From a phage, in assembly GCA_024449565.1 (NCBI GenBank), contig GCA_024449565.1_4810.1: a stretch of DNA of 64,000 nucleotides. The stretch is one strand, 5' to 3'. The notes beneath the pieces are model-generated. The model searched no databases. It had not been told where the DNA came from and saw only the letters and a program-made list of their open reading frames with translations. Positions 7,175-64,000 of the stretch are shown here, one piece after another (position 1 is the first letter of the stretch; each line of letters opens with the position of its first letter). A program made the position numbers and the translations under genes.

Positions 7175-7551
7175 AAATTTCCTGTGGGTACAAAATAGTA
7201 CGGTACTGTCTAGGACTTTTTCTTTGAAAAGTTAGTGGACCAAATGTGTCGTATTTTGATTAGTGTACCGCAAATTCCATCAAGTAGCAAAACGCACCAA
7301 AAGACCCATGCCCTAAAAACCACACGAACGCAATAATCAATCGCCGTTACAGTTTCCAGCGTTACAATTAGAAAGCGAATGATTCGATGCATAATAATAT
7401 GAAGCATAATGATTCGAAAGCTAATGGTTGCGCGTAGGATGATATCGGGAGGGATTATTCGAGATGCGTGTAATTTCGCATGCGTACTATTTTCGGGCGA
7501 AGGGTCGGCATATTCTTCGTTTTAGCTCGGAACGAAGGGAAAGTTTTGCGC

Positions 7552-7628
7552 CTTTATAAAACAACGACTTACGCGACCCGCCTTAACGGTCCGATATAGG
7601 TGTCTATATAAAACAAGGACTTACGCGA
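7552..7628. repeat. two 25-bp direct repeats (ctttataaaacaacgacttacgcga / ctatataaaacaaggacttacgcga)
   Basis: Copies at about 7552-7576 and 7604-7628, 2 mismatches, inside a ~570-bp non-coding stretch. Confidence 0.7.
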
Positions 7629-7750
7629 TGTTCTCCATTTAACGTAATACCTGTTATGCGAACTAAGGCGCATCTCGACGAAGATTGTGCGACGACGAAG
7701 GGAAGGATAAAGGAGTTTTCGCGTAGGAGCTCATCGAGATAGGGACGAAG

Positions 7751-7772
7751 AAAAGCCGCGACTAAGCGCGGC
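7751..7772 (-). terminator. terminator-like hairpin downstream of the 7793-8083 minus-strand gene
   Basis: gccgcg/cgcggc 6-bp stem, loop actaag; T-run on the minus strand (aaaa on plus at 7751-7754). Confidence 0.4.
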
Positions 7773-7792
7773 CTATTAGTAACGGAAGGGTA

Positions 7793-8083
7793 TTATAAGG
7801 AGACGATTTTAAAGAAAGAGTAACGGCCTTCGCCTTCGGATACCGCGATATATTCGCCGCCGAACTCCGTAGCAAAATAAACCTTGCCTTCGATAGTAAC
7901 GCGGAAGGTAGAAATATCTTCCTCTTCGAGTTCCGTAAATTCGCTAAAATCGATAGGACTATGAAGCTCCTCGATAGTCGCATCTACGTTAAAGAGATAA
8001 ACGTTTTTAAGTTTTTCGCCAAATACGTTAGAGTTTTCGGAAGTTTCGACGCGAGCGGAACGGATAGCGGCCAAAGTAATCAT
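7793..8083 (-). CDS. small acidic protein, paralog family member 1 (96 aa)
   Basis: AGGAGA RBS; CpG-rich codon usage; aligns with the 8719-9003 product (IRxAxVE, VYxxNVDxTIE, C-terminal GxxYFxAxE). Confidence 0.6.
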   Translation of the reverse strand: MITLAAIRSARVETSENSNVFGEKLKNVYLFNVDATIEELHSPIDFSEFTELEEEDISTFRVTIEGKVYFATEFGGEYIAVSEGEGRYSFFKIVSL

Positions 8084-8190
8084 AATATTCTCCTAGTTAG
8101 TCGGGAGGGTAGCGACCTATTCGCTACCTCATCCCCTCTCGATATAAAACATTATAGTCTTAGTGTACGAAGAAGTAAAGCACTTTTTCG
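8084..8190 (-). promoter_or_regulatory. upstream control region with AGTGTACGAAGAAGTAAAG element
   Basis: 19-bp element at 8162-8180 recurs at 8560-8578 (direct) and 8621-8639 (inverted, 2-3 mismatches); ctcgata(t/c)aaa also shared with the 8494-8560 region. Confidence 0.4.
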
Positions 8191-8493
8191 TTATTCTGCG
8201 ATAAAATATTTATAAGCTTTATCGCCTTCTACGTCGATATACTCGACGATAATTAACGCTTCGCCGCGCGGCGTAACCGTCTCGATAAGGGTAACGGCTT
8301 CGTCGTCGGTCTTCGCGAAGCGGATTGCGCTACGTTCGGCGTACTTAATATCATCGAAGGAAAGGCCGACGAAAGCGACCGCGCGGACCTTAATAATGGT
8401 AGATTCTAGTTCCGCGTTAACGGCAGCGATAAGAGAGCGAACGGTTAAACGGTCTTCGTCGTAAGTAAGGATAGAAGAGATTAAAGTAGTCAT
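8191..8493 (-). CDS. small acidic protein, possible distant paralog (100 aa)
   Basis: Start moved to ATG at 8493 with GGAG RBS (MTTLISSIL...); the longer track ORF ends at 8550. Confidence 0.55.
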   Translation of the reverse strand: MTTLISSILTYDEDRLTVRSLIAAVNAELESTIIKVRAVAFVGLSFDDIKYAERSAIRFAKTDDEAVTLIETVTPRGEALIIVEYIDVEGDKAYKYFIAE

Positions 8494-8718
8494 AATAAAA
8501 CTCCCGATGCTAGTAGAAGGAAGGGCCATCACCCGTCTCGATACAAACAAGTATACGCGAGTGTACGAAGAAGTAAAGAAAAAAGATAAAATAATTTATC
8601 TCATTTTTATCGAAAAAGTGCTTTACTTTTTTCTACACTATATTATAATGTACTCATATCGGGACGGGATGAGTTAACGAATAGGTCGTTAACGCCCGTC
8701 GAGAACTAGGAGTTTAAA
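8494..8718. promoter_or_regulatory. divergent intergenic control region
   Basis: Lies between divergent starts 8493 (minus) and 8719 (plus); contains inverted pair of the AGTGTAC...GTAAAG element and a tattataat -10-like box. Confidence 0.45.
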
Positions 8719-9003
8719 ATGGCTATTCTTAACGTTTCTTCCATCCGTAACGCTATCGTCGAGAACTACGGCGTAAAACAAATTTTATCCGAAGTTTACG
8801 CCGCGAACGTAGACCAAACTATCGAGGCGGGTGGGGTAACGGTCGCCGAGGCTTTTAAACTTTACGCGGCGCTACCGGAATCGGACCGCGAAGCCTTCGA
8901 AGTAAACGTTAACGGATACTTCTTCGAAGCGGTCGAAATCGGTAACATCTTACTCGTTATGGGCGAAGAAGAATTTGATACCTTCTCCCTCGTCGAAGCG
9001 TAA
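8719..9003 (+). CDS. small acidic protein, paralog family member 2 (94 aa)
   Basis: AGGAG RBS; CpG-rich codon usage; homologous to the 7793-8083 product. Confidence 0.6.
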   Translation: MAILNVSSIRNAIVENYGVKQILSEVYAANVDQTIEAGGVTVAEAFKLYAALPESDREAFEVNVNGYFFEAVEIGNILLVMGEEEFDTFSLVEA

Positions 9004-9083
9004 GAGAGGATTTTTAGAGCGTCGTGCGCGGCGCTTTAATAAAATTCTTTCGCGCCTAGCGCCCTAACAAATAGGAGTTCATT

Positions 9084-9710
9084 ATGGTTAGCTTAAATCG
9101 TTTCTCGACTAGCGGCGACGTTATCGCAACTAAGACCGCCGACCTCGTTGCATTTTATAATGCAAATTCAGGTTCGAAGCCGATTAAAAAATTTGCGGAC
9201 CGCCGGACCGCCGAGACTCGCGTAATCGCGCTAATCGAGTCCTTAAACGCGCTCGATGAGCCGTCCAACGAATCGCCAATCCCCGACGCGAAGCCGCGCG
9301 AGGAAGTGTCCAGCGATGTAAAAACGCATAAGGCGCGTGCGGTCGTTAAAAAGGCAGAGCCGACGCAGGAAGAACTCGACGCGATGAGCGATGAAGAGTA
9401 TGAAGCCTTCGTTAAGAGCGGCTTAAACGATAGTGCAAATTGCGTAGTGCAAAATGGAACTCCTTCCCATCGCCGTTCGAATAGCGAAGGTATTGCAAAA
9501 AGTTGGGACAATAAGGAAGTGGCGCAAAAGCGTCTCACCCGTAACGGCGTTATGGTCGAGGGTGTAGGAGAGTTCAAATCGGTCCGCGCAGCTTTCGCCG
9601 CGCTGGGATTACCGGATAGCAAGCACATTCGCTTCCGTATGAAGCTTAAGGAAGCTGGGCGCTTGAACTTCGAGTTCGGCAACAAGTCCTTTACCTTCCA
9701 GATTATCTAA
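9084..9710 (+). CDS. hypothetical protein (208 aa)
   Basis: AGGAG RBS; CpG-rich codon usage; two internal copies of the TAGTGCAAA(T/A) motif. Confidence 0.6.
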   Translation: MVSLNRFSTSGDVIATKTADLVAFYNANSGSKPIKKFADRRTAETRVIALIESLNALDEPSNESPIPDAKPREEVSSDVKTHKARAVVKKAEPTQEELDAMSDEEYEAFVKSGLNDSANCVVQNGTPSHRRSNSEGIAKSWDNKEVAQKRLTRNGVMVEGVGEFKSVRAAFAALGLPDSKHIRFRMKLKEAGRLNFEFGNKSFTFQII

Positions 9711-9760
9711 TCGAATGGCGGCCCTTCGGGGTCGCTTTTCATAGTGCAAATTGGTGGCTT

Positions 9761-10024
9761 ATGAATACGCTTATTCTCATCGCTACGTTGTCCATCGGAA
9801 GTGGTCGCACCTTATCCCTTTATGACCATAGTGCAAATTGCGCCTATCCTACGCGCGTTGCGGCGATAGTTAATAGTGCAAATAAGATGCTATTCGAGAC
9901 TTGCTGGAGGGTCGATAACGAGAAAGGTCGGGTAGTCTTAGGCTATAGTGCAAATCTGCTGGTGGAGTCGTTCGATTGGACGGTTGAAGGTCGTAAATTG
10001 TTACGTAAAGTGACTAAAAGATGA
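9761..10024 (+). CDS. questionable ORF (87 aa) carrying three in-frame motif copies
   Basis: Weak RBS; three in-frame AGT-GCA-AAT (Ser-Ala-Asn) copies of the motif; may be non-coding. Confidence 0.3.
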   Translation: MNTLILIATLSIGSGRTLSLYDHSANCAYPTRVAAIVNSANKMLFETCWRVDNEKGRVVLGYSANLLVESFDWTVEGRKLLRKVTKR

Positions 10025-10085
10025 CTTATAATAATACACTTTCTAACGCGTTTATGGTTACAACCTTCCCCGTCGTATTACCGAT

Positions 10086-10125
10086 GGCCCTAGAAGTGGA
10101 GAAAATGTGTTCTAGGGCCGTTTTA
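10086..10125 (+). terminator. terminator-like hairpin (10-bp perfect stem) between convergent genes
   Basis: ggccctagaa ... ttctagggcc with 14-nt loop, then gtttta; immediately followed by a motif copy. Confidence 0.45.
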
Positions 10126-10138
10126 TAGTGCAAATTGG

Positions 10139-10612
10139 CTAGTGGCGGGAGAATTGCTCTCCTTCTTTGGCCGCCTCTCCAAAATCCTTGTAGAAATCAT
10201 CCATGGAACGGCCCATTTTACTATTGCCATTTTCATCAATCATCGTGATGCCGTAGATGATATTCAGTTCACGAATGGCATTAAGTTTGGCTGATGCCGC
10301 GACTTCTGGATCACGCACAAGCTTCACTAGATTGTGGATGGAACTCTTTACGCTCCACAATTCCTTCAATGGCATCTCTTCCATACGCTTTTTGTAGCGC
10401 ATCTTGTAGTACGGATTGCGCTGAGTGCACAGGATTCGCTGGCCAGTGTAGTTATCGGTCGCAACCTCCATGCCAAATACTAGTGCAAAAGCTGCGCGCA
10501 TGTCATGGCCTTGAATAACAAGGTCAATGAACTCATCGAATAATGCCTGATTATGCTCTGCAAATCGCGGGTCTTCAAAGTCTTCAGGCATTGCTACATA
10601 ATCTTGACTCAT
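10139..10612 (-). CDS. hypothetical acidic protein (157 aa)
   Basis: Start moved to internal ATG at 10612 (MSQDYVAMPEDFED...); two motif copies abut the start on the other strand. Normal (non-island) composition. Confidence 0.5.
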   Translation of the reverse strand: MSQDYVAMPEDFEDPRFAEHNQALFDEFIDLVIQGHDMRAAFALVFGMEVATDNYTGQRILCTQRNPYYKMRYKKRMEEMPLKELWSVKSSIHNLVKLVRDPEVAASAKLNAIRELNIIYGITMIDENGNSKMGRSMDDFYKDFGEAAKEGEQFSRH

Positions 10613-10693
10613 AGTGCAAATCCCATAGTGCAAATTAATAGTGTGAATTATACAATGAATGAACATTATATTCAAGTGCAGATTGATGTTCAA

Positions 10694-11453
10694 ATTGGCT
10701 GTAAACGTACATAAATCATAGTGCTAAATGAATAGCGGACCGTGATGCGTGGTGTACTGTTTGATACGTATAAAAGAAATCCATCCCTTTCGCCGCTTGC
10801 TATGCAAATCAATGACTTAGCCGCTGCTGGCTGGTTGAAGCGTATCATGACGTATCATCCGTATTGCCGCAAGTCTTTGTTTTTACTTATATCTTACGGA
10901 TAATACGTATAAATATAAGTTCAGTATAAGTATGAGGATGTAGAAAAAAATTAATTTAAATTAATTCAAAATGGAGTTAATTGTTTTTTTCAAAGTTGTA
11001 TAAAGTATAGCGGCGACGCGTATCATCCGTATCATCCGTAAGATGTACCATTGAACCCAGTCGCGGCGCACCATAGAAGTGTGTGGAGTGAACTACGGAT
11101 AGGTCCAAATCTTACGTCATTATACGTTTAAATTCTATGCGTAAGGTTAGCCAGCTAACTATATCTCCTTTTTAATTTCAAGCGGCAATCCCAGAGACGG
11201 CGCACCATGTACACAAACACACCACGGTACACGCTCCAATTCCTAGTGATTTCCTCTCCAATCCCACAACACCACAGTACAATAATCTTCCAAAACCGCA
11301 CACATATTCAAGACGCAAAATTCACGTCACAATCCTCACTACCAACGACACTCTAATAGATTTACACAAATCAATCGATTTATCCGATAATAAAGACTCA
11401 CATTCCACAGGCAAATAAAAAGGGCCAATCGGCCCTCTTAACATTAATCATAA
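10694..11453. other. 760-bp non-coding region with iteron-like repeats, AT-rich dyad and strand-skewed CA-rich tract
   Basis: No ORF of 60 aa or more on either strand; CGTATCATCCGTA-type repeats at 10841-10870 and 11018-11040; AT-rich tract 10943-10991; CCCAGnnnCGGCGCACCAT at 11056-11074 and 11189-11207; G-poor tract about 11208-11400. Confidence 0.5.
11408..11437 (-). terminator. intrinsic terminator downstream of the 11454-11906 gene
   Basis: gggcc/ggccc stem with T-run on the minus strand (ctttttatttgcctg). Confidence 0.5.
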
Positions 11454-15477: not shown

Positions 15478-15516
15478 TCTCCTTTGCTTGATGAACTAAG
15501 TATAATACAGGCAAAT

Positions 15517-15545: not shown

Positions 15546-15548
15546 GAA

Positions 15549-16189: not shown

Positions 16190-16422
16190 TTTGCATACTC
16201 CATAGCATATTGCTGCAGCTTAAATGCAGCCTTGTTCAATTGTTTGTGCCTTGCGTACAAGCGCTCACGTTCTTCTTCAGGGCAATCGGCACGAAGAATA
16301 GTCATGGCAATACTTGACATCGCATTAAGGGTGCGCTGAAAAGCCGACACCATGCGCAGCTCATTACGCTTGTTGAAAGACAACTTACCCAGCGCGACAT
16401 TCATAATTGCACCTCGACACAC
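16186..16422 (-). CDS. hypothetical protein (78 aa)
   Basis: ORF track; 4-bp overlap. Confidence 0.5.
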   Translation of the reverse strand: MCRGAIMNVALGKLSFNKRNELRMVSAFQRTLNAMSSIAMTILRADCPEEERERLYARHKQLNKAAFKLQQYAMEYAK

Positions 16423-16718: not shown

Positions 16719-16769
16719 AATCACCTCACTTGTTCGTCTTGATGAAAAGAGTATAATTATTGATAAAAG

Positions 16770-16797
16770 AAAAGGCAAGCATTTAGCTCACCTTTTT
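16770..16797 (-). promoter_or_regulatory. 29-bp repeat element: terminator hairpin plus promoter (copy B)
   Basis: Same sequence as 15517-15545, followed on the minus strand by AATTATACT -10-like box. Confidence 0.45.
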
Positions 16798-16802
16798 GAT
16801 AT

Positions 16803-17135
16803 TCATTTTACATAGTGGAGTAGGTCAATCTCTATCTGTTCACGTGTCCTTGTTATCTTTGTATCACCCGTCCGGTGAGAGAATCGATAGATGGTCAACT
16901 CTCCGTCATTTCCTCTGTCAAACTTCATGCTGGCTAGTCTACAAGCATATATTGCATTAAGCCTTTCGCCATAAGACAGAAGATTGAAGGTCAATACTGT
17001 GTTGCCCATTCTTGCATTTTCTTTTATGCACTTCTTTAAGAAGTAATAAGAATCAGCAAATGCATTGGCCTTCTTCCACACTTCCTTTATCAATCCACGC
17101 TCATGCGCGGCGAGTATTTGATCACGGGTCATCAC
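16803..17135 (-). CDS. hypothetical protein (110 aa)
   Basis: ORF track; 4-bp overlap. Confidence 0.5.
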   Translation of the reverse strand: MMTRDQILAAHERGLIKEVWKKANAFADSYYFLKKCIKENARMGNTVLTFNLLSYGERLNAIYACRLASMKFDRGNDGELTIYRFSHRTGDTKITRTREQIEIDLLHYVK

Positions 17136-17368
17136 TGCACCTCTGTTATTCCGGTGATACGAACGATTACGGTGTCATCTAAATTGAACTGCTGCCGCGC
17201 GACGCGCTTGATGTCGTCCTTAAGGTCCGCAATCAACTCCCTTGTTAACACTGTACGCTCTGAAACGTCATATTGAACGTCAAAGGTATACTCGCCATAA
17301 AATACCGCGCCATTGGGAAGTTGCACGACATAGAATGCCATATACATGGCGTTAATATAATCTTCCAT
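17132..17368 (-). CDS. hypothetical protein (78 aa)
   Basis: Start moved to internal ATG (MEDYINAMYM...) overlapping upstream stop (TAATG). Confidence 0.5.
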   Translation of the reverse strand: MEDYINAMYMAFYVVQLPNGAVFYGEYTFDVQYDVSERTVLTRELIADLKDDIKRVARQQFNLDDTVIVRITGITEVQ

Positions 17369-17715
17369 TACACATTCTCCACGGGTCGACGGATGAGTTT
17401 GCGTAATCCTTCGGGCCAGACCTTCTTGATGACGGCTTTTGCTGGGCTGGATGAAAGCTTCTTCAGCTTCAATAGGACACACCCTTCATCATCGTTCGGT
17501 TGCACCTGGATAACGACTCGCGCTTGTCGGTCGATGACCATGACATCCCCAACGCGGATGTCTTTCACCAACACGCCCATCTCTTTCGTACCGGATATGC
17601 CAATCACGTGGTCGCAACGGACTCGCGACGGTATCAACGTACCGCCTTCAGCCATCTCACGCACGCGCTTCTTAATCTCTGCGCCATACAACGTTTCATC
17701 TTTAACATGAGCCAT
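17368..17715 (-). CDS. hypothetical protein (115 aa)
   Basis: ORF track. Confidence 0.5.
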   Translation of the reverse strand: MAHVKDETLYGAEIKKRVREMAEGGTLIPSRVRCDHVIGISGTKEMGVLVKDIRVGDVMVIDRQARVVIQVQPNDDEGCVLLKLKKLSSSPAKAVIKKVWPEGLRKLIRRPVENV

Positions 17716-18196
17716 GGTCGAGTACCTTATAAAGAGTGCAAGAAGGACTGCTGAATTCCCTTAATGCATAAGCCACGTTCAAGCTGCCAGGTTCTTTCTT
17801 TGCGTTTGTCACTTCCATGCATTGGCAGCCGTTTATGCTGTATCGTCTTACTACAACAGCATTGAAAATCTGACTGCCGTAATAGACGCAGACGATAACA
17901 TCACCGACTTCTATTTTATCAGCCGGAACAGGCTTAAGGCGCGGCTTTTTATCAACATAAGTCTTGATAGGAACTTGTACGCAACGAGATTGATGGTAAA
18001 TAGGTCTTGTTGCACCCTTGACGTTGCGCTTCAGCAATTCATCAATGGCATAGTCAACATCATCACTTTCAAACTCCTTCATGATGAAGTCTCTTACCCT
18101 TACACGAAGGTTAACATCTGCTTCTGCACGTCTCAATGCGTGTAAAATTTCTTCAGCTTCTTCTTTGTTCAACATTAAAGGGCGATGTATGATCAT
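17702..18196 (-). CDS. hypothetical protein (164 aa)
   Basis: ORF track. Confidence 0.5.
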   Translation of the reverse strand: MIIHRPLMLNKEEAEEILHALRRAEADVNLRVRVRDFIMKEFESDDVDYAIDELLKRNVKGATRPIYHQSRCVQVPIKTYVDKKPRLKPVPADKIEVGDVIVCVYYGSQIFNAVVVRRYSINGCQCMEVTNAKKEPGSLNVAYALREFSSPSCTLYKVLDHGSC

Positions 18197-18198
18197 AA

Positions 18199-18462
18199 TT
18201 AACCTCTGATTTGTGACACAAAACGTTTATAATGTTCTTTGGCCAGGACGCGTGCGCGCTCTTTCGTATGGCCGCTGGCTTCAAGTACGCGGCGAAGCTG
18301 CTTGATTGCGTCTGCCTTGCTGATTTTATTATTGCTAAATTGATATTTATTCATTTCTTCATCTTCTCTCAATTCTGATTCAAAATCCAAACAATCTTCT
18401 TCGCCACTTCTCGTTTCGAGAAATAATTTGCACTTGCCTTTTATCATAAGTTTGTTATTCAT
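18199..18462 (-). CDS. hypothetical protein (87 aa)
   Basis: ORF track; 4-bp overlap with upstream gene. Confidence 0.5.
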   Translation of the reverse strand: MNNKLMIKGKCKLFLETRSGEEDCLDFESELREDEEMNKYQFSNNKISKADAIKQLRRVLEASGHTKERARVLAKEHYKRFVSQIRG

Positions 18463-18680
18463 GCTTCACAAGCCGCCTTAATTTGACGTGGAGTAACGAT
18501 GACCACTTCACCAACCAGTGACTTGTCATCTTCTTTTACCGTATCGATTCGAACGCGATAGTGATTGCGACCGCGCGAATCAGTAAGGTGTTGATCCAGC
18601 TCAAGGATGGTTCCTGCACGCATGTGATGTCCTGATATCCAACGGATACGGTCGCCAGCCTTAAGGGTTTTCTTGCTCAT
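18459..18680 (-). CDS. hypothetical protein (73 aa)
   Basis: Start moved to internal ATG at 18680 (MSKKTLKAGD...); track ORF extends to 18845 with a junk-like N-terminus overlapping the upstream gene. Confidence 0.45.
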   Translation of the reverse strand: MSKKTLKAGDRIRWISGHHMRAGTILELDQHLTDSRGRNHYRVRIDTVKEDDKSLVGEVVIVTPRQIKAACEA

Positions 18681-18687
18681 CTTCAAC

Positions 18688-18966
18688 TCACTTATAATAT
18701 TTAAACATAGCCGCGCAAAAGTCTTGCATGGCATTCTTAATTTGCTTCTTAAACAACGGGTCATGCATCGTTTCAACATTCGTCTTAATCCGAACGTGAC
18801 CGATAACATCAAACGCAGTCGCTGGCATCGGCTCATAGATTTCATGATCGTTCAAGATTATATCTAGCTTTGACTCAGAAATCACGGGATAATTCTTGCC
18901 AGCAGTAAATTGGTCATCAATAGGTGATGTGCACTTGACAAAGAATACTTTGTATGTAGTAATCAT
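18688..18966 (-). CDS. hypothetical protein (92 aa)
   Basis: ORF track. Confidence 0.5.
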   Translation of the reverse strand: MITTYKVFFVKCTSPIDDQFTAGKNYPVISESKLDIILNDHEIYEPMPATAFDVIGHVRIKTNVETMHDPLFKKQIKNAMQDFCAAMFKYYK

Positions 18967-19172
18967 AGAGAATCCTTCGGGCCGCAGTAGCGCCCGTCCA
19001 GGTAGCGGTCATATTGGATTAAAGCGAATGTTTTCAGCGAAAGGTTACGGCGCTTAAACAGATGACCAGTTGCTGGATTCTGCTCGTGCGCCGTTGGATA
19101 AAGGCGTGACAGGTAGTGGATGAGGACTTGCAAAGCCCTACGTTGATTTGTTATTCTCCCCTGTGTATTCAT
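18963..19172 (-). CDS. hypothetical protein (69 aa)
   Basis: ORF track; 4-bp overlap. Confidence 0.45.
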   Translation of the reverse strand: MNTQGRITNQRRALQVLIHYLSRLYPTAHEQNPATGHLFKRRNLSLKTFALIQYDRYLDGRYCGPKDSL

Positions 19173-19362
19173 GGCTGAATCTACCCTCTGTCAATATCCG
19201 GTCATGGATGACTATACCAGTACAGCGCAGGCGGTTGGCATTGCTTCGCGCCTTTGCTGCTTGATGAGGATTGAACAAGCCAAACAAACTAGCCTTAAAA
19301 GCAAACTGGTAATATTTGATTAAGGTACTAAGTGCTAACTCAATCCTGTCTAAATTAATCAT
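19138..19362 (-). CDS. hypothetical protein (74 aa)
   Basis: ORF track; first gene of the minus-strand run. Confidence 0.45.
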   Translation of the reverse strand: MINLDRIELALSTLIKYYQFAFKASLFGLFNPHQAAKARSNANRLRCTGIVIHDRILTEGRFSHEYTGENNKST

Positions 19363-19401
19363 AATATCACCTCGTCAGAAAAGCAAATATTTTGATGATA
19401 A

Positions 19402-20049
19402 TTATCCTGTGGCCTGCATATTGCGTACATACTTCTGCTCTAATGAATAGATGAAGTCGGCGACAGTCAATCCCTTCGTGTGCCATTCATACATGGTGAA
19501 GCCTGTATTCAGGAAATAGCCGCGCACTTTATCCATTGCTTCAGCTTCCTCCATTGAAGCCATCAGCGCGGCGACGTTGTCATAAGAAGGCACAAATCCC
19601 TTCTTGCGTAGCGCATTGCGCAAATCTTTAGTTCTGAATCCAATCTTGCAAGGGTCATCACGACCAGTAGATGATGCAACCTTTGGTAGCGCAAGGAACT
19701 CTTTAAGGAACATTGCAATGTTCAAGTCGCCTGCGTCATCAAGCTTCTGGATTCGGTTGCGACCGCGACCCTTGAATTCACTTGCGCGAGGGTGAGTGCC
19801 AAAACAGTGCGCACCTTCCAGTTTAGGGTCGATGATCATTACATCTTTACCAATGCGCAGCTCTACGTAGTAAAGATAAGACTCATCGACAAGCTTTGTA
19901 CGCTTGCAAGTGATTGAGTCCTTATCATAACCAAAGCCACGCAACACGGTTGAAATCATCCGGTTCATTTCTTCGCCGTGAACATCACTTTCTTTGTTCA
20001 GTTCACCAAGATGTTGAAAGAATTTAGCGATGTTGATTGCTTTATTCAT
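19402..20049 (-). CDS. hypothetical protein (215 aa)
   Basis: ORF track; stop overlaps helicase gene start by 1 nt. Confidence 0.55.
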   Translation of the reverse strand: MNKAINIAKFFQHLGELNKESDVHGEEMNRMISTVLRGFGYDKDSITCKRTKLVDESYLYYVELRIGKDVMIIDPKLEGAHCFGTHPRASEFKGRGRNRIQKLDDAGDLNIAMFLKEFLALPKVASSTGRDDPCKIGFRTKDLRNALRKKGFVPSYDNVAALMASMEEAEAMDKVRGYFLNTGFTMYEWHTKGLTVADFIYSLEQKYVRNMQATG

Positions 20050-21719
20050 CAGAATTCATCCTTATCTCTTCCCAAAGAACGTTTACGTTCAATAACCTTC
20101 TTCAAGAACTCAATATCTTCAGGGTCAGACTCATCGCGGATAAGATACGCTAAGATGGTCATCAAGTCAGAAATGTATTCCCCTGCTTCATTCTTAATCA
20201 GCGGCGTAAAGTAACCGCGCTGGTTGCGATAGGTCGCAGGTTCAAAGCCAAGCTTTGACATGTGCGGCGCAAGGGTACGAGAGAAAGGCGACTTGCCGCA
20301 CTTCGCTCTGAATCCCATAGCGATAGCACCACTGGTAATGTGCCAGCGTCCGCTGTGATGTCGGTCATAAGGCGCGGTGATGACGACTTCAACAAGGTCG
20401 TTGTCAACCATCTCATCACGGATAACGCCTCGCGCACGTTCCATTTCATTCTTGCTGAACTCAGTAAGCATGCGAGATGTTTCACCAACAAACGCGTTAT
20501 AGCCTGCTTCGCCGTGCTTCTCCATCCACGCAGCACACTCAGCCATCAACTGCCAAACGTCTTCTTTCAAAGTAGAAAGGTCAGCTTGGAAGTCTTTCGA
20601 CCAGTTCGGTTGCCCGTCCTTATCAGCGAGTTGGCCAACAAAGATAGGATACACACGACGGTTGCCTGTGTCATCACGTTGCATGCCTGCGTATTCGTTG
20701 CCGTCCATGATAGCAATCCACTGGCGTGGTTTCACCTGCGTATCTTCAAATTTGAAGTCCAGGTCGTCTTCCGTCTTAGTCAGGAATGCTTTCATGTTTT
20801 CGATGTCGGCCTTTTTAAAGCCTGTCATCTCGCCGACGTTCGCGATAATTGAGCGACCCGTAATAGCTCGCAAGAACGGGTTGAAGTTCTGCGCGGCTAA
20901 GTTCAACGGAATCGGTGTTGCGTGGCGGTCGTTCATAATAGCTTCGCAAAGCAGCTTGCTAAAATAACTCTTGCCTGCGTTCTGGCCGCCGATGAGCGCG
21001 ATGGAGATTGGCGCTTGACAGCCAGGGTTGGTCAGGCGGTTGTAGAGCGATAGCCAAAAATACACACCGATTTGTCGGTTTAACTCTGTATCGAACGGTC
21101 GGAATAGCTCGATAAGGTATTTCTCGATGCGCGCAGTACCGTCCCATTCAGGCAGCTTCTTGTAGAAGAAGTCCATCAGGTCGTCACGCTGATAACGCAT
21201 GGCCCATTCCTTATAGGATTGAGCGACCTGACGTGAGTTTGGGTTGGACAGTCCTGCTGCGTCGACAGCGGCAACTATCTCTGTGACTTCTAAGGTACGG
21301 TCAGTGAATGTTTCGCCGCGATGGTCGACTAAGCGCCCACGAAAAGTATCTTTGTGAGGGAATGGAACAACGCCACTTCCCTTATCAAACAACGCGTCGA
21401 AAACCGCATAACGGTTCATGTCACTTGTCCGGTCTGCCTGTAGAACGAAGTCATCTTTGGTCGGCTTGTAGTGAGGGAACTTGATTACCTGAAGTGAGGC
21501 GAGCAAGCGTGCTCTTTCAACCAAGTCTTCTTCACCGTAGCATTCCATGCGCTCTGAATCTTTTTCAACGGCTTTATGTTGAAGGCTGATTTTAGCTCTG
21601 GTGCCTTGCTGCTCTGCTGCCTGCATTTCTTCCGAAACGCCTGCATCTTGAATTTCGTCAAAGATTGCACCAAATTCATCACCTGTATCCTCTGGAAGAT
21701 TGTCATTATTAATTGACAT
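20049..21719 (-). CDS. P-loop NTPase, putative primase-associated replicative helicase (VirE/D5-like)
   Basis: 556 aa; Walker A IALIGGQNAGKS; Walker B-like hhhhDG region; size and context of phage primase/helicase proteins. Confidence 0.6.
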   Translation of the reverse strand: MSINNDNLPEDTGDEFGAIFDEIQDAGVSEEMQAAEQQGTRAKISLQHKAVEKDSERMECYGEEDLVERARLLASLQVIKFPHYKPTKDDFVLQADRTSDMNRYAVFDALFDKGSGVVPFPHKDTFRGRLVDHRGETFTDRTLEVTEIVAAVDAAGLSNPNSRQVAQSYKEWAMRYQRDDLMDFFYKKLPEWDGTARIEKYLIELFRPFDTELNRQIGVYFWLSLYNRLTNPGCQAPISIALIGGQNAGKSYFSKLLCEAIMNDRHATPIPLNLAAQNFNPFLRAITGRSIIANVGEMTGFKKADIENMKAFLTKTEDDLDFKFEDTQVKPRQWIAIMDGNEYAGMQRDDTGNRRVYPIFVGQLADKDGQPNWSKDFQADLSTLKEDVWQLMAECAAWMEKHGEAGYNAFVGETSRMLTEFSKNEMERARGVIRDEMVDNDLVEVVITAPYDRHHSGRWHITSGAIAMGFRAKCGKSPFSRTLAPHMSKLGFEPATYRNQRGYFTPLIKNEAGEYISDLMTILAYLIRDESDPEDIEFLKKVIERKRSLGRDKDEF

Positions 21720-23028: not shown

Positions 23029-24111
23029 CTATTTTATGCCACCTGCACGACGATTTATCATGTCAAGTTGATTCTCAATATAAGGCATGACGATTGCTTC
23101 AACAAAAGCAGTCCAACCTTTCTTGCCTTCCCCTTTCCGGTGACAGTCGTGGGCGCAACCGAACACAAACTCATGTTCTGCACCAGGAATAGGGCCGCGA
23201 AAGTAAGCGCCATACGGGTCGCCGTTGGTGTGTTCTTCACCCCAAGGACAGATTATGCGGCACTTGCCTGACATGTTCTCGATGACGTCGCCATCAGACC
23301 CTTCACCCATTTTGTTGCGCGATAGAATCTGCTGGGCTATTTTATACCAAACAGCATCATACTTGTATTCATCGACGTCAATTTGAATCTCACGCTTTTG
23401 CGGCATGACGACGTGAAAGCCAAATGCCTGACAAATGTCTTCGATGGTGTAGCGCAATGAGTAGTCTGCATGGACAAGTCGGCAGCGGAACGGGTCGCCG
23501 TTCTCATCGACATATTTATAGGGGCCGTCGTGAGTCACACGCTTGTTGTTGATGCACCCAGGAACACGGCCCACGCGCGTTACGTCTTTAATCGTGTTGT
23601 CGCCGCCCTTCTTGAGTACCATGTTAACGAAAGACCCAAGGAACGCTTTGAACTGAATAAGATGGTCAATCGGTTCTTTAAAGAAGTACCAAAGCTGGTG
23701 GTTGTTCGGTGAAGTCTCGACGATGACAGTCGGCTTCAGTCGCTCAAAAAAGAATTCCAAATCTAAATCGCCTTTGGACCCTTTACCGTGACCGATGTCG
23801 TCGACCATCATCGCCATGCCATGGCCAAAGGCCGACTCTGTACGCCAGTATCGCATCTCACCCGTCTTTGGGTTGGGAGACTTACGCATTGAACTTATGC
23901 AGGCGTAACCGTTCTGATGTTGCATCAGCGGCTTTCCCAACTTCCAAGGCTTAGGCCAGAAGCTACTGTTAATCTTCTTGCCGCGCTCGTCAGTCTGCAC
24001 CGTTGCTTCAGGCGCAAACACCGTCATGACGCGCTCATCTTCTGGAATGCCTCTTTGGAGTTCTGTTAAAAACTCTTCGATTATTTTTGCTTCTTCTCTT
24101 AAACTAGCCAT
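23029..24111 (-). CDS. putative DNA primase / primase-polymerase-like protein
   Basis: 360 aa; acidic hhhVDDIGHG motif; Cys/His cluster CPWGEEHTx(n)FGCAHDCH; adjacent to P-loop helicase. Assignment by motif and context only. Confidence 0.4.
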   Translation of the reverse strand: MASLREEAKIIEEFLTELQRGIPEDERVMTVFAPEATVQTDERGKKINSSFWPKPWKLGKPLMQHQNGYACISSMRKSPNPKTGEMRYWRTESAFGHGMAMMVDDIGHGKGSKGDLDLEFFFERLKPTVIVETSPNNHQLWYFFKEPIDHLIQFKAFLGSFVNMVLKKGGDNTIKDVTRVGRVPGCINNKRVTHDGPYKYVDENGDPFRCRLVHADYSLRYTIEDICQAFGFHVVMPQKREIQIDVDEYKYDAVWYKIAQQILSRNKMGEGSDGDVIENMSGKCRIICPWGEEHTNGDPYGAYFRGPIPGAEHEFVFGCAHDCHRKGEGKKGWTAFVEAIVMPYIENQLDMINRRAGGIK

Positions 24112-24271
24112 CTTTCTTTCCTTCGGTGATCAATACCTGCAGTATAATATTGAGTGATACAAAGTCAACAATATTTACCATTTAGTTCACAATTTCGATT
24201 TACTTTGCTTTATACTATATCTGCAATTATACTATCAGAAAATATTTCCGCACTAACAAAGGTCGCCTGAA
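24112..24271. promoter_or_regulatory. divergent promoter region between primase-like gene and plus-strand replication block
   Basis: AT-rich 160 bp with several TATAAT/TATACT-like boxes on both strands. Confidence 0.4.
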
Positions 24272-24598
24272 ATGAACGAAAAAGAGACGAAGCAACGCGA
24301 ACGTGCAACACACGTCGGAATCGTTGAGTCCTTCCTTAATACAAGATTGAATTCAAGCCTAACAATCATGCGATTCCTGGGTCAACCAGACAGAATCAAA
24401 TTTATTTTTGCCGCAAATCCGGTATCGCTGTACATCCCTGTTGAATCCATGGCGTACTTAGTGCGCGACGAGAAAGGATGGAAGATACCAAACACAACTG
24501 TTTTCTTCAGTCATGTTGATGGTGAGATGTTTGAACGAAAAGAAGATTGCCATTTTATTCCAGTATATCTGGACCTTGACAGCGTAGTGGAGTTATAA
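24272..24598 (+). CDS. hypothetical protein (108 aa)
   Basis: ORF track; stop overlaps helicase start. Confidence 0.5.
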   Translation: MNEKETKQRERATHVGIVESFLNTRLNSSLTIMRFLGQPDRIKFIFAANPVSLYIPVESMAYLVRDEKGWKIPNTTVFFSHVDGEMFERKEDCHFIPVYLDLDSVVEL

Positions 24599-61728: not shown

Positions 61729-62367
61729 TTAACGAGTCAATTGTACAATGGTATAAGTGGAAGACTGGACGCTTGGGCCGGAAAGGGCAATAGCAGTCGG
61801 GTCAATCACGATACCGCCTGGAATGGCAACCATGCCAGTTGGCAGTGAGCCAGTATAGGCGATAATTGCACCAATAGGCAAGTTGTTCGGGTTATCCGTG
61901 CTGGAGATGCCTTTAGGTACATAAGCGAGCAAATCGCCATAGTTAAGCGTCTGCGGGCTGGTGCTTGGGTTGAATACTTCAACTACGAGGCCCGTGCACA
62001 TGTCGTAGAACTCGCCTTCGCTGTATTGAGGCAGAACCATGCTGGCGCCCAAAGGACCAGTAGAGTTGCCATACAGCGCGTAACGCTTGCTATTGCCGAG
62101 GATGCCGTAGTAGTTGGTGCCGCCCAGCTCAACTTCAAAGTCCTGCGCGCCCAAAGTTTTGGTTTGACCAGTGCCCATTAAGGATACGTCAGCCTTAAAA
62201 CCGAACACACGGCTGATGGCGTTTACGTTTGCGCCTTCGTTGGCGTTGGCAATTCGACCTGGCTTCCCACGCTGTGGGCCGTCGCGAACGATGTCGCCAG
62301 GAAAGCCAGTTGTATATTGACGGCCTACACTAGTTTGGAAAGTCATGTTTATTCCCCTTTCAACCAA
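61729..62367 (-). CDS. head-module protein, possible decoration or accessory capsid protein (212 aa)
   Basis: Gly-rich; between scaffold-like and capsid genes. Confidence 0.45.
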   Translation of the reverse strand: MVERGINMTFQTSVGRQYTTGFPGDIVRDGPQRGKPGRIANANEGANVNAISRVFGFKADVSLMGTGQTKTLGAQDFEVELGGTNYYGILGNSKRYALYGNSTGPLGASMVLPQYSEGEFYDMCTGLVVEVFNPSTSPQTLNYGDLLAYVPKGISSTDNPNNLPIGAIIAYTGSLPTGMVAIPGGIVIDPTAIALSGPSVQSSTYTIVQLTR

Positions 62368-63767
62368 GCTTCAAATGCTTCGTCAGTTGCTGCAGAATCC
62401 GCAGCGGCCTTTTGTTTTGCGACTACACGCTGTTTTTGACCGTGTTCAACGCCACGCAGATAATTATCCACCACGTCAAACTCAGCACCATCAACGCACT
62501 TCAAGCCTAACTTTTTAGCGCCATATTTCGCTACGGACTTGGAGTCCATAGTTGCATGATCAAAGGCACCAACAACTTTAGACAGGCGCTGGTAGAGGCT
62601 ATTCTTACGAGCAGAATCAGCGTAGAAAGCAGCAACTGCTGAATCAGATGCCATTGAGTGTTCCCCTTTTGCTGGACCTGGCGACGCTTTCGCCGCTTTT
62701 GTCGGTTTGTCATCTTTTTCGACCGAAGCCCCCTTTACGTTGCTGTTTTGCAGGCCGCTAACCACATCTTCAGCTTTGTCGCAAGGTGATACATCTTCAG
62801 CCTTGACTTCAACTTCTTCGTCTTTGACTTCGGCTTCAACTTCTTCTTCATCACCTACCGCGCCACCTTTCAGTTTTGCAATAAGTGCTTCGATTTGGCT
62901 GATCAATTGCGGAAGTTCGCCGCCAGCGTTAGATTCAGTTTCAACTTCAAACTTCTCTTCACCTTCTGGGGTTTCTTCTGCTTCTGCCTTGACTTCTGGA
63001 TCAACCATTACTTCTTCACGATTTTCGGTTGAGTCCTTCTCTTCTGCTTTCACTTCAACTTCGTCCTGATGAGCAGCTTCAGTACTCTCTTCATTCAGAA
63101 ATTGTTCGAGCGCAGGGATCAGTGATTTCAGCTGTTCAACAGCATTATCACGCGCTTTACCTTTTAACGGTTTTAGCATGTCTAAATCCTCGTTGGATGG
63201 TGTTACAGTCGTCAAACAAAGATGGTCAAAGCAACGACCATCCAGCACCCGTGCACCTGGTACTCGACCAACGTCCACGAGAGCAATGTGGTTGCCGCGA
63301 AGAGTTGTCTGCACCACTTCATACGGCTGCCCGTCAAACTCTCCAGACTGTATGATGAATTCACAGTCATATCCCAAAGACAAGTCAACCTTTCCAGAAT
63401 CAATGGCCTTCTTCAGACGACGGCTAAACACTTTAAGGTCGCCGCGCATCCATGGCTTGTCATAATAAACATTGCCAGTCAGAACGCCATCAACTCCATA
63501 CTCTTCGGGTGCTGTGTTATCCTCATCACCTTCGAATCCAGAAAGCATTTCGTGATTGTCGATGAAAGGGATATTTTTGAATGAATCTATCGCTTCGGGG
63601 TCTTTCACCGCTGACTCTGGGCGATAAACTTTTACGATGCGATTCGGATCACCATCAAGTCCAACCTGACCTGCAGAATAATCAAAAATGCCAAATGACG
63701 AAATGGGACAACCCACAATCATCAAGAATCCATTTTTGTCAATTTCGCGTGCCGTTTGCATTCGCAT
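62349..63767 (-). CDS. putative prohead scaffold/protease fusion protein
   Basis: 472 aa; N-terminal globular domain, highly acidic Glu/Val/Lys-rich middle typical of scaffolds, C-terminal domain; first gene of structural operon in the window. Confidence 0.45.
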   Translation of the reverse strand: MRMQTAREIDKNGFLMIVGCPISSFGIFDYSAGQVGLDGDPNRIVKVYRPESAVKDPEAIDSFKNIPFIDNHEMLSGFEGDEDNTAPEEYGVDGVLTGNVYYDKPWMRGDLKVFSRRLKKAIDSGKVDLSLGYDCEFIIQSGEFDGQPYEVVQTTLRGNHIALVDVGRVPGARVLDGRCFDHLCLTTVTPSNEDLDMLKPLKGKARDNAVEQLKSLIPALEQFLNEESTEAAHQDEVEVKAEEKDSTENREEVMVDPEVKAEAEETPEGEEKFEVETESNAGGELPQLISQIEALIAKLKGGAVGDEEEVEAEVKDEEVEVKAEDVSPCDKAEDVVSGLQNSNVKGASVEKDDKPTKAAKASPGPAKGEHSMASDSAVAAFYADSARKNSLYQRLSKVVGAFDHATMDSKSVAKYGAKKLGLKCVDGAEFDVVDNYLRGVEHGQKQRVVAKQKAAADSAATDEAFEAWLKGE

Positions 63768-64000
63768 CCACCCTCAAATAAGTATTGTGTATTATATCTA
63801 ATGAAAAAAACTTAGGCAAACAATAATTATGGTTTGAATATGTATAACAACCGATATAGCCGCGCCTTAATTAGTGTGATACGGATGATACGGATAAAAT
63901 GAGGCGTATTTTTATCCGTATCGGTGTATAAGCCGCGCTATCACTGGTGTGCTACGGATGATACGGATGATACGGATACTTTTCATATATAAGAGTTTAT
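63768..64000. promoter_or_regulatory. upstream region of the structural operon with TACGGATGATACGGA iteron-like repeats
   Basis: Repeats at about 63878-63896 and 63954-63980 are reverse complements of the CGTATCATCCGTA repeats at 10841-11040; AT-rich. Confidence 0.45.

What the first reader, a model, noticed from the sequence alone, without database searches (positions are those of the whole stretch)
63768..64000. Same iteron in inverted orientation upstream of the structural operon
The non-coding DNA upstream of the first structural gene carries TACGGATGATACGGA repeats at about 63878-63896 and 63954-63980. These are the reverse complement of the CGTATCATCCGTA iterons at 10841-11040. Two arrays of one iteron in opposite orientation, each upstream of a major minus-strand transcription unit, suggest a shared regulator controlling both operons, or paired sites for a DNA-looping or packaging protein.
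Basis: seen in the sequence. Interest (0 to 1): 0.5.

Follow-up and report, generated by a model that had tools for sequence, protein, structure and literature searches.

The report
Paired iteron origin-like elements in phage
The repeats are the visible half of one of two matching 300-bp DNA elements (short protein-binding repeats on both sides of a very AT-rich centre) that this E. coli phage and its relatives all carry; they look like replication origins for the phage's own helicase, and one of them is also where the packaged chromosome ends.

Summary
The repeats are real. The 13-mer occurs only at 10851-11040 and 63880-63974, with 0 of 100 shuffles reaching that count. The "inverted orientation" is an artefact of the window end.

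The window is a Wifcevirus, a PB1-like E. coli myophage. In relatives the 63.9-kb array continues into an AT-rich core and a second arm. This gives element E2, which is co-oriented with and paralogous to element E1 at 10840-11127. Each element has 9-bp TACGGATGA units in both orientations around a roughly 100-bp core. The two cores are the most AT-rich spots in the genome.

Seven lineages carry E1-type elements with lineage-specific repeats. In six of them E1 and E2 share the same repeats.

- **Position of E1:** it lies upstream of the small terminase gene. In most lineages it also lies directly downstream of a helicase whose best fold match is SaPI1 Rep1, an initiator that binds exactly this type of origin.
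- **Genome end:** the virion DNA end, which is the boundary of the 3.7-kb terminal repeat, falls at the dyad centre of E1 (10972/10973).

Best reading (about 0.5): two Rep-type replication origins, with E1 also carrying the terminase cut. The main rival is small-terminase binding sites. No experiment exists, and I found no published description.

The parts
63878..63897 (+). E2, protease-proximal arm: two tandem 9-bp units (GA-TACGGATGA-TACGGATAA)
63914..63922 (+). E2: single unit in the opposite orientation (ATCCGTATC). It forms a 13-nt inverted repeat with 63888-63900.
   Evidence: I7
63952..63979 (+). E2: three tandem 9-bp units (TACGGATGA, TACGGATGA, TACGGATAC). This is the left arm of a perfect 22-nt inverted repeat; the right arm lies 101 nt away, beyond the window end (FEC19 L001 8077-8098).
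   Evidence: I1
63980..64000 (.). Start of the E2 AT-rich core, cut off by the window end. The 80-bp stretch starting at 63980 has 8.7% GC, the lowest in the genome.
63791..63819 (-). Sigma-70-like promoter TTGCCT-17-TATAAT between E2 and the protease gene. The homologous promoter in Pbunavirus 14-1 (P014) has a mapped transcription start.
   Evidence: L001 7820-7792, where window coordinate = L001 coordinate + 55999
62349..63767 (-). Prohead protease gene downstream of E2
10840..10864 (+). E1, outer arm on the TerS side: GCGTATCATGACGTATCATCCGTAT (units in TCATCCGTA orientation)
10893..10912 (+). E1, inner arm on the TerS side: CTTACGGATAATACGTATAA (units in TACGGAT orientation). It forms an inverted repeat with 11025-11047.
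   Evidence: I1
10911..11018 (.). E1 AT-rich core (17.5% GC over 80 bp, second lowest in the genome). The virion DNA end, which is the boundary of the terminal repeat, lies between 10972 and 10973. That is within 5 bp of the dyad centre at 10967.5.
11019..11042 (+). E1, inner arm on the far side: CGTATCATCCGTATCATCCGTAAG, part of a 48-nt block nearly identical in E2
11056..11077 (+). Box found in E1 only: CCCAGTCGCGGCGCACCATAGA. The 16-mer core is exact in Serratia phage MyoSmar E1 and absent from E2.
   Evidence: (D14)
11093..11126 (+). E1, outer far-side units: CTACGGATAG and CTTACGTCATTATACG. They form an inverted repeat with 10835-10854.
   Evidence: I2
10139..10612 (-). Small terminase (TerS) gene immediately downstream of E1. 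It is a homologue of phage E217 TerS (PDB 7UXE, E=9e-33).
7300..10972 (-). The 3673-bp direct terminal repeat, present once in the window. Its boundaries are identical to those in Mansfield (PhageTerm) and WFH.
20049..21719 (-). VapE-like / SaPI1 Rep1-like self-loading helicase with a predicted C-terminal winged helix. This is the candidate protein that binds the repeats.
23029..24111 (-). RepB-type primase gene upstream of the helicase gene, giving the pri-rep gene order

Best explanation
The array at 63878-63979 is the left half of E2. E2 is one of two co-oriented, paralogous elements of about 300 bp; the other is E1 at window 10840-11127. Each element has 9-bp repeats (core TACGGAT) on both sides of a roughly 100-bp extremely AT-rich core, pointing in opposite directions.

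I read both as replication origins of the type used by SaPI Rep-like self-loading initiator helicases. In this model the C-terminal winged helix of the phage's Rep1-like helicase (window 20049-21719) binds the repeats. Two hexamers load on either side and the AT-rich core melts.

E1 is the ancestral origin. In most relatives it sits directly downstream of the helicase gene. E2 is a second origin, or an origin enhancer, placed in front of the head-assembly operon.

E1 has one further job. The terminase cuts at its dyad centre (10972/10973), which makes the left end of the virion DNA and one boundary of the 3.7-kb terminal repeat. E2 lacks the E1-specific sequences, and no DNA end has been reported there.

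- **Shown:** the anatomy; the restriction of the repeats to two loci; conservation and lineage-specific co-variation of E1 and E2; the position of the DNA end; the gene order; the fold of the helicase.
- **Inferred:** which protein binds the repeats, and that replication starts there.
For: 1. **Anatomy.** E2 has a perfect 22-nt inverted repeat with a 101-nt AT-rich spacer. E1 has nested inverted repeats around 10911-11018. The two cores are the two most AT-rich 80-bp windows of the genome in Wifcevirus, and likewise in Pbunavirus Ab29.
2. **Restriction to two loci.** The repeats occur only in E1 and E2. The same holds for the lineage-specific repeats of MyoSmar and Ab29.
3. **Co-variation.** Six lineages were compared: Wifcevirus, Kylevirus, Myosmarvirus, Pbunavirus and two metagenomic lineages. 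In each, E1 and E2 share 19-40 canonical 9-mers, against 2-19 between lineages and 2-9 against coding DNA. The repeats differ by lineage: TACGGATGA, GGTTATTT, ACTTTTCG, GGTAATT, TATCCGATA and GCCGCAACT. A seventh lineage, Burkholderia phage Maja, has an E1-type element with GATAGTTAAC.
4. **The helicase.** It matches SaPI1 Rep1 (PDB 7PDS) by sequence at E=4e-11. The AF2 model (pLDDT 85) has Rep1 as by far the best fold match, at E=6e-16 over about 480 columns. It also shows a C-terminal helix/strand pattern typical of a winged helix.
5. **The SaPI precedent.** PMC9371898 describes the SaPI replicon. The primase gene lies upstream of rep and the origin lies immediately downstream of rep. The origin has short repeats on each side of an AT-rich centre, at least two per side pointing in opposite directions, and the Rep winged helix binds them.
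6. **Gene order here.** The RepB-type primase gene lies upstream of the helicase gene. E1 lies immediately downstream of the helicase gene in Ab29, MyoSmar, four metagenomic lineages and Burkholderia phage Maja.
7. **Independence from packaging mode.** E1 and E2 are fully conserved in Pbunavirus, which is reported to package by headful without fixed ends (PMC10913387, PMC12390725). The shared function therefore does not depend on a precise cut.
8. **No better origin candidate.** The divergent region beside the replication genes has no repeat array.
9. **The cut in E1.** Mansfield and WFH agree to the base. Kyle, MyoSmar and MTx also end inside their own E1 cores.
Against: - No experiment shows binding or initiation.
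- In the window's own genus, about 9 kb of small ORFs separate the helicase gene from E1, so the rep-then-origin adjacency is not met here.
- The small terminase gene is the one neighbour of E1 that is invariant in every lineage examined. The DNA end lies exactly between the repeat arms, as in P1 pac and SPP1 pac. The repeats could therefore be terminase sites.
- The variable parts of both candidate proteins diverge between lineages (helicase residues 408-556, TerS residues 1-80), so co-variation cannot choose between them.
- E2 keeps the sequences next to the cut site in Kyle and MTx. This is not needed for a pure origin, although gene conversion could explain it.
- The units are 9 bp, against 5-6 nt in SaPIs.
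- An origin in the middle of a head-gene cluster is unusual.
Confidence: 0.5

Rival explanations
1. The repeats are binding sites for the decameric small terminase. E1 is a pac/cos-type packaging initiation site: TerS bound on both arms presents the AT-rich core to the large terminase for the cut. E2 is a second TerS platform. It might couple head-protein expression to TerS level, or pair with E1, as proposed for the T4 gp16 pac sites in genes 16 and 19.
For: - The virion DNA end lies within 5 bp of the E1 dyad centre. It lies inside the E1 core in three genera and five records.
- The TerS gene lies 280-600 bp downstream of the element in every lineage examined.
- The protein is a homologue of E217 TerS.
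- The TerS N-terminal half, the HTH region in E217 TerS by my recollection of the E217 paper (not read), is its most divergent part.
- Tandem units 9 bp apart would suit DNA wrapped on a ring of HTH domains. This is inference.
- The SCUT-S1 paper places a PhageTerm 'Pac' site in an AT-rich region (PMC6521218).
Against: - A full second copy inside the genome should be cut too, yet no record or PhageTerm result places an end at E2.
- E217 TerS showed no appreciable DNA binding in vitro (review PMC9611059). I could not establish which DNA was tested.
- E1 and E2 are equally conserved in Pbunavirus genomes, for which no fixed ends were found.
- A 100-bp core at 9-20% GC is not a feature of known pac sites.
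Confidence: 0.25
2. The repeats are operator or activator sites for a phage transcription factor that co-regulates the TerS gene and the protease-scaffold-capsid operon.
For: - Both elements lie between a terminator and a sigma-70-like promoter of a leftward late-type gene.
- In Pbunavirus 14-1, a mapped transcription start (P040) arises inside the TerS-proximal repeat arm of E1. Mapped sigma-70 promoters P041 and P014 precede TerS and the protease gene (bioRxiv 10.1101/2023.10.13.562163, Table S3).
Against: - The distance from repeats to promoter differs, at about 60 bp for E2 and about 150 bp for E1.
- No start site is mapped inside E2 in 14-1.
- Other late operons (large terminase, portal, tail) have no such repeats.
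- The long AT-rich core, the dyad symmetry and the DNA end in E1 are left unexplained.
Confidence: 0.1
3. The two elements are functionless duplicated DNA kept alike by gene conversion, or a repeat derived from the host.
For: Similarity between E1 and E2 extends beyond the repeats into core-flanking blocks. Gene conversion would produce this pattern.
Against: - Both positions are conserved across lineages whose protease is only 44-60% identical.
- Within Wifcevirus the elements are about 97-99% identical, while neighbouring DNA is 92-95% identical.
- There is no match in 5,426 E. coli genomes.
- The 19 bacterial hits to the 22-mer are one-directional tandem repeats that look coding (e.g. acidic Asp/Thr repeats), in unrelated taxa.
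Confidence: 0.03

Closest known systems
SaPI (staphylococcal pathogenicity island) replication origin with its Rep initiator-helicase (SaPI1 Rep1, PDB 7PDS; PMC9371898)
   Same: - Short repeats sit on both sides of an AT-rich centre, at least two per side and pointing in opposite directions.
- The repeats are lineage-specific.
- The gene order is primase, helicase, origin (in most relatives).
- The helicase is the best fold match in the PDB and has a predicted C-terminal winged helix.
   Different: - The host element is a virulent 68-kb myophage, not a satellite island.
- The units are 9 bp (7-bp core), not 5-6 nt.
- There are two copies per genome, about 16 kb apart.
- One copy contains the virion DNA end.
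- In Wifcevirus the origin is not adjacent to the helicase gene.
Satellite phage P4 ori and crr, bound by the alpha primase-helicase (from my own knowledge; not read here)
   Same: Two separated loci carry the same short repeats for one self-loading primase-helicase with a C-terminal winged helix, and both loci act in cis.
   Different: - P4 crr is a pair of 120-bp direct repeats without an AT-rich core of its own.
- The P4 loci are 4.5 kb apart rather than about 16 kb.
- P4 ends at a separate cos site.
Terminase recognition sites with repeats flanking the cut: P1 pac, SPP1 pacL-pacC-pacR, lambda cosB/cosN (from my own knowledge)
   Same: The DNA end lies between two sets of short repeats, next to the small terminase gene.
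   Different: - Those sites are single-copy.
- They have no 100-bp AT-rich core.
- They are bound by TerS. Here the binding protein is unknown and a full second copy is apparently not cut.
Phage T7 concatemer junction with the adjacent replication promoters phiOL and phiOR (from my own knowledge)
   Same: Origin-like elements lie beside the terminal-repeat boundaries, and repeat duplication and packaging are coupled to DNA synthesis.
   Different: T7 origins are promoters for the phage RNA polymerase followed by AT-rich DNA. They have no repeat arrays, and the T7 terminal repeat is 160 bp.
Dyad-symmetric origins of SF3-helicase viruses (SV40, papillomavirus E1 binding sites) and HSV oriS (from my own knowledge)
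   Same: Inverted binding sites flank an AT-rich region, where two helicase hexamers load head to head.
   Different: These are eukaryotic viruses with an unrelated origin-binding domain, and no genome end lies in the origin.

Membership tests
SaPI Rep-type origin (repeats / AT-rich centre / repeats, self-loading helicase) | Short repeats on both sides of an AT-rich centre, at least two per side, pointing in opposite directions | tested here: met
   E2 has three tandem units at 63953-63979 facing two tandem units at FEC19 L001 8077-8098. This is a perfect 22-nt inverted repeat with a 101-nt spacer. E1 has arms at 10888-10910 and 11025-11047. The cores have 9-18% GC.
SaPI Rep-type origin (repeats / AT-rich centre / repeats, self-loading helicase) | Origin lies immediately downstream of the rep (helicase) gene | tested here: inconclusive
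   Met in Pbunavirus Ab29, MyoSmar, four metagenomic lineages and Burkholderia phage Maja. Not met in the window's genus, where the helicase gene ends at 20049 and E1 starts at about 11127. E2 is never next to the helicase gene.
SaPI Rep-type origin (repeats / AT-rich centre / repeats, self-loading helicase) | A cognate Rep-like helicase with a C-terminal winged-helix domain is encoded | tested here: met
   phmmer matches 7PDS at E=4e-11. The AF2 model has pLDDT 85 and a helix/strand pattern at residues 436-504 typical of a winged helix. Foldseek ranks 7PDS first at E=6e-16 over about 480 columns.
SaPI Rep-type origin (repeats / AT-rich centre / repeats, self-loading helicase) | Primase gene upstream of the helicase gene | tested here: met
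   A RepB-type primase gene lies at 23029-24111 (minus strand), upstream of the helicase gene at 20049-21719 (minus strand). The same order holds in Ab29, MyoSmar and Maja.
SaPI Rep-type origin (repeats / AT-rich centre / repeats, self-loading helicase) | Repeat sequence is specific to each lineage and matched to its own Rep | tested here: inconclusive
   The repeats are lineage-specific. The helicase C-terminal region is its most divergent part, at 19-37% identity against about 60% in the core. The TerS N-terminal half diverges as well, so the partner cannot be assigned.
SaPI Rep-type origin (repeats / AT-rich centre / repeats, self-loading helicase) | Rep binds and melts the origin, and the origin supports replication | not testable with these tools
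   This needs EMSA or footprinting, a plasmid origin assay, or marker-frequency sequencing.
pac/cos-type terminase recognition site | The mature DNA end maps inside the site | tested here: met
   This holds for E1 only. Mansfield position 1 and WFH position 1 both equal window 10972. The ends of Kyle, MyoSmar and MTx lie in their own E1 cores. No record ends at E2.
pac/cos-type terminase recognition site | Lies in or next to the small terminase gene | tested here: met
   TerS (10139-10612, minus strand) starts about 230 bp from the nearest E1 repeat (10840) and 360 bp from the cut. The arrangement is the same in all lineages examined. E2 lies next to the protease gene instead.
pac/cos-type terminase recognition site | One functional site per genome unit | tested here: not met
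   A complete paralogue, E2, exists in the same orientation about 16 kb away. In Kyle and MTx it even keeps the sequences next to the cut site.
pac/cos-type terminase recognition site | The repeats are bound by the small terminase | not testable with these tools
   The only indirect evidence is a review statement that E217 TerS did not bind DNA appreciably in vitro (PMC9611059).
Plasmid-type iterons (RepA/pi/TrfA class) | Tandem direct repeats of 17-22 bp on one side of the unwinding element, with DnaA boxes | tested here: not met
   The units are 9 bp, occur in both orientations and flank the core on both sides. No plasmid-type Rep was found among the nine largest window proteins scanned.
Operator / upstream activator sites of a shared transcription factor | Fixed position relative to the regulated promoters | tested here: not met
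   The nearest repeat lies about 60 bp upstream of the -35 hexamer at E2 and about 150 bp upstream at E1. In 14-1, a transcription start lies inside an E1 arm and none lies in E2.

The most novel reading that the evidence does not exclude
One DNA element serves both replication and packaging. The AT-rich unwinding core of a Rep-type origin would also be the site where terminase makes the cut that defines, and allows duplication of, the 3.7-kb terminal repeat. Origin firing at E1 and end formation would then be mechanistically coupled. This would be a long-repeat analogue of T7's requirement for both an origin and a concatemer junction. The uncut twin, E2, would act as a second origin. A variant of this reading has the helicase and the small terminase competing for the same repeats, as a switch from replication to packaging.
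Probability: 0.25. Interest if true: 0.75.

Novelty: new variant of a known kind. Interest (0 to 1): 0.55.

Why it matters
PB1-like phages (Pbunavirus, Wifcevirus and relatives) are among the phages most used in therapy. Even so, neither their replication origin nor their packaging signal has been defined, and reports on their genome ends contradict each other.

These paired elements give concrete candidates of about 300 bp for both functions, and two named candidate binding proteins. They also explain why the small terminase gene sits 50-58 kb from the large one: it travels with the origin and end element.

If the origin core is indeed the terminase cut site, the element offers a tractable system for a poorly understood question, namely how long exact terminal repeats are generated. 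The elements matter for phage engineering too. Genome rebooting, minimal replicons and transduction-free designs should not disrupt them.

Tried and rejected
- **Host-derived or scattered repeat.** Rejected. There is no match in E. coli genomes. The IMG/VR hits to the 22-mer are all Wifcevirus. The bacterial hits are unrelated one-directional coding-type tandem repeats.\n- **Structured RNA.** There are no Rfam matches anywhere in the window.\n- **GCGGCA(A) boxes as a second specific motif.** Rejected. The hexamer is common throughout the genome, at 92 copies.\n- **Origin in the divergent primase/Dda-helicase intergenic region (24111-24598).** It has no repeat array.\n- **Within-genus conservation to separate repeats from spacers.** Uninformative. 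The whole elements are 97-99% identical across Wifcevirus.\n- **Co-variation of repeats with the TerS N-terminus versus the helicase C-terminus.** Both diverge between lineages, so nothing is decided.\n- **GC skew.** It follows transcription direction, and the apparent minimum at 64 kb is a window-end artefact.\n- **Pfam on TerS.** No hit. The assignment rests on PDB 7UXE.\n- **Papers I could not read.** The E217 terminase paper was not held; I did not request Ceyssens 2009 (subscription journal, no PMC id in the reference list). What I say about them comes from reviews or memory and is marked as such.\n- **Repeats near the other boundary of the terminal repeat (AATCATTATGC type).** Not significant genome-wide at 2 mismatches. 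They are visible only as a local cluster.

Full report
**1. The observation**

- Window 63878-63897 reads GATACGGATGATACGGATAA, and 63952-63979 reads CTACGGATGATACGGATGATACGGATAC.
- These are the reverse complement of CGTATCATCCGTA at 10851, 11019 and 11028.
- The exact 13-mer occurs six times in the window, all at these two loci. With up to two mismatches there are 8 matches against 0.89 expected, and no shuffle out of 100 reaches 8.
- The real unit is 9 bp, with a 7-bp core TACGGAT.
- In a census of all 9-mers in the reconstructed genome, TACGGATGA occurs 10 times. Nine copies lie in the two elements and the tenth about 370 bp from E2. Other frequent 9-mers are GC-rich and dispersed.

**2. 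What the window is, and what the window end hides**

The window is a Wifcevirus. This genus of E. coli myophages has genomes of about 68 kb; the window is 98% identical to FEC19, WFH, WFC, ECML-117 and Mansfield.

The gene downstream of the array is the prohead protease, not the first structural gene. Large terminase, portal, a MuF-like head protein and one more gene lie further upstream.

The window stops inside a 570-bp intergenic region. In FEC19 this region continues as follows:

- a 75-100 bp AT-rich core;
- then TATAAAGTATCGCGGCAACG-CGTATCATCCGTATCATCCGTAAG;
- then GATACGGATGATACGTCATTATACG.

This is the order and orientation found at window 10840-11127. The two elements align over their whole length on the same strand, including a 48-nt block that is nearly identical. 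"Inverted orientation" is therefore a truncation artefact. There are two co-oriented paralogous elements, each containing units in both orientations. I call them E1 (10840-11127) and E2 (63878 to about 64150 in window-equivalent coordinates).

- E2 has a perfect 22-nt inverted repeat with a 101-nt spacer.
- E1 has nested inverted repeats, at 10888-10910 with 11025-11047 and at 10835-10854 with 11113-11132.
- The two cores are the two most AT-rich 80-bp stretches of the genome, at 8.7% and 17.5% GC.

**3. The genome end lies in E1**

The Mansfield record opens at a 3673-bp direct terminal repeat predicted by PhageTerm (PMC6753283). WFH was sequenced by another group and carries a 3701-bp repeat at both ends (PMC6563267).

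Both records start at the same base (ATTTTGAATTAATTTAAATT...) and both repeats end at ...GGGCATGGGTCTTT. In window coordinates:

- the terminal repeat spans 7300-10972;
- the left end of the virion DNA falls between 10972 and 10973;
- this is within 5 bp of the centre of the inner dyad of E1, at 10967.5.

The first substantial gene inside the repeat is at 10139-10612 on the minus strand. It is a homologue of the structurally solved small terminase of Pbunavirus E217 (PDB 7UXE, E=9e-33).

**4. Conservation and co-variation**

Other genera carry the same two-element layout with different repeats.

| Lineage | Repeat | Where found |
|---|---|---|
| Serratia phage MyoSmar (protease 54% identical) | ACTTTTCG(TTTT) | Upstream of the protease, and at only one other place: its PhageTerm repeat boundary, next to its TerS orthologue (35% identical) |
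| Serratia phage MTx (related to MyoSmar) | Same as MyoSmar | Ends within about 14 bp of the aligned position |
| Pantoea phage Kyle | GGTTATTT and GAATATCCGAA | Both elements; its record starts in the E1 core |
| Pbunavirus Ab29 | GGTAATT | 9 of 12 copies lie in the two elements; the conventional genome start lies in the E1 core |
| IMG/VR contigs carrying the same TerS family | Further lineage-specific repeats around an AT-rich core | 280-600 bp upstream of TerS |

I compared six lineages for which both loci are available. The 800 bp upstream of TerS and the 800 bp upstream of the protease share 19-40 canonical 9-mers within a genome. They share 2-19 between lineages, and 2-9 against coding DNA.

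The repeats are not host DNA. Within Wifcevirus the elements are 97-99% identical, more than the neighbouring DNA. Two conserved positions, lineage-specific sequence and identity between the two copies together point to a phage-encoded sequence-specific binding protein.

**5. Which protein, and what for**

Two candidates flank E1 in the ancestral gene order.

*Downstream: the small terminase.*

*Upstream: a VapE-like helicase (window 20049-21719).*
- Its gene ends directly before E1 in Ab29, MyoSmar, four metagenomic lineages and Burkholderia phage Maja. Maja has its own repeats (GATAGTTAAC), its own AT-rich core and a TerS homologue.
- In Wifcevirus about 9 kb of small ORFs are inserted between the helicase gene and E1.
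- The helicase matches SaPI1 Rep1 (PDB 7PDS) by sequence at E=4e-11.
- An AF2 model (pLDDT 85) has Rep1 as by far the best PDB fold match, at E=6e-16 over about 480 columns. It also shows a winged-helix-like helix/strand pattern at residues 436-504.

The paper that reports 7PDS describes the SaPI replicon (PMC9371898):
- the primase gene lies upstream of rep;
- the origin lies immediately downstream of rep;
- the origin is made of short repeats with an AT-rich centre;
- at least two repeats on each side point in opposite directions;
- the Rep winged helix binds them, and two hexamers probably self-load.

Here a RepB-type primase gene lies upstream of the helicase gene, and E1 and E2 have exactly that anatomy. 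No other repeat-plus-AT-rich structure exists in the genome that could serve as an origin.

E1 and E2 are also fully conserved in Pbunavirus. Several groups find no fixed ends in that genus (PMC10913387 and PMC12390725). [quoted passage not shown]

I therefore rank the origin reading first, at about 0.5. E1 additionally carries the terminase cut. E1-only sequences, such as the box at 11056-11077 that is also exact in MyoSmar, could explain why only E1 is cut.

**6. Rivals**

*Small-terminase binding (0.25).* This explains the end lying between the arms, as in P1 pac and SPP1 pac, and the invariant linkage to TerS. It must also explain an uncut full copy, the reported lack of DNA binding by E217 TerS (PMC9611059), and conservation in headful-packaging relatives.

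*A shared transcription factor (0.1).* This fits the setting between a terminator and a promoter. It also fits a mapped transcription start inside the E1 arm of Pbunavirus 14-1. It does not explain the variable spacing to the promoters, the absence of such repeats at other late operons, the AT-rich core, or the DNA end.

*Unresolved.* Divergence of the helicase C-terminus and of the TerS N-terminus cannot discriminate between the two proteins. All functional statements are inference. No binding or replication data exist, and I found no paper that describes these elements.

**7. Verdict**

The repeats are a real and specific feature.

The kind of element is known: a Rep-type origin with repeats, an AT-rich centre and repeats. 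Three things are new:
- its presence in duplicate across the PB1-like phage clade;
- the co-evolving pair of elements;
- the virion DNA end at the centre of one copy.

Noticed in passing
window 9155-10730: Ten same-strand copies of ATAGTGCAAAT lie inside the terminal repeat. Two of them overlap the TerS start codon (10609-10637). They could be early-promoter -10 elements (TATAGT) or operator sites.
   Followed up: no
window 7372-7427 (minus strand), 70-130 bp inside the other repeat boundary (7300): Four AATCATTATGC-like repeats lie about 15 bp apart, followed by GTAACG twice. TAATCATTAGC and CTAATCATTGAG also occur at the right end of Pantoea phage Kyle. Unlike the E1/E2 repeats, this motif is therefore shared between genera. 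It is a candidate signal for the right-end cut. It is not significant genome-wide at 2 mismatches.
   Followed up: partly
window 7099-7170: An 18-bp tandem repeat, CTGCCGCGCAGGAGTGTA, occurs about 3.5 times just outside the terminal-repeat boundary.
   Followed up: no
window 11056-11077 and 11190-11208; MyoSmar L014 3640 and 3349: The 16-mer CGCGGCGCACCATAGA is exact in E1 of both Wifcevirus and Myosmarvirus, although the surrounding DNA does not align. It is absent from E2, Kyle, MTx and Ab29 at up to 3 mismatches.
   Followed up: partly
window 7300 and 10972: The window is a circular or concatemer-style assembly. Both physical ends of the virion DNA lie inside it, and the 3.7-kb terminal repeat is present only once.
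   Followed up: yes
window 11130-20049: About 9 kb of small minus-strand ORFs separate the Rep-like helicase gene from E1 in Wifcevirus. In Pbunavirus, Myosmarvirus, Burkholderia phage Maja and several metagenomic lineages the two are adjacent.
   Followed up: partly
L022, L032, L039 (Alistipes / Rikenellaceae MAG contigs): The 22-mer hits in these Bacteroidales contigs sit in arrays of GATACGG / GTATCA-type short repeats that look like iterons of some other element, not like coding repeats.
   Followed up: no
Pbunavirus 14-1 (literature), equivalent to Ab29 L019 50-110: The mapped transcription start P040 of phage 14-1 has its whole promoter inside the TerS-proximal repeat arm of E1 (TAATTTGGTAATTTGGTATACTTTAGTATTTGA). 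Whatever protein binds the repeats would therefore also control this promoter.
   Followed up: partly
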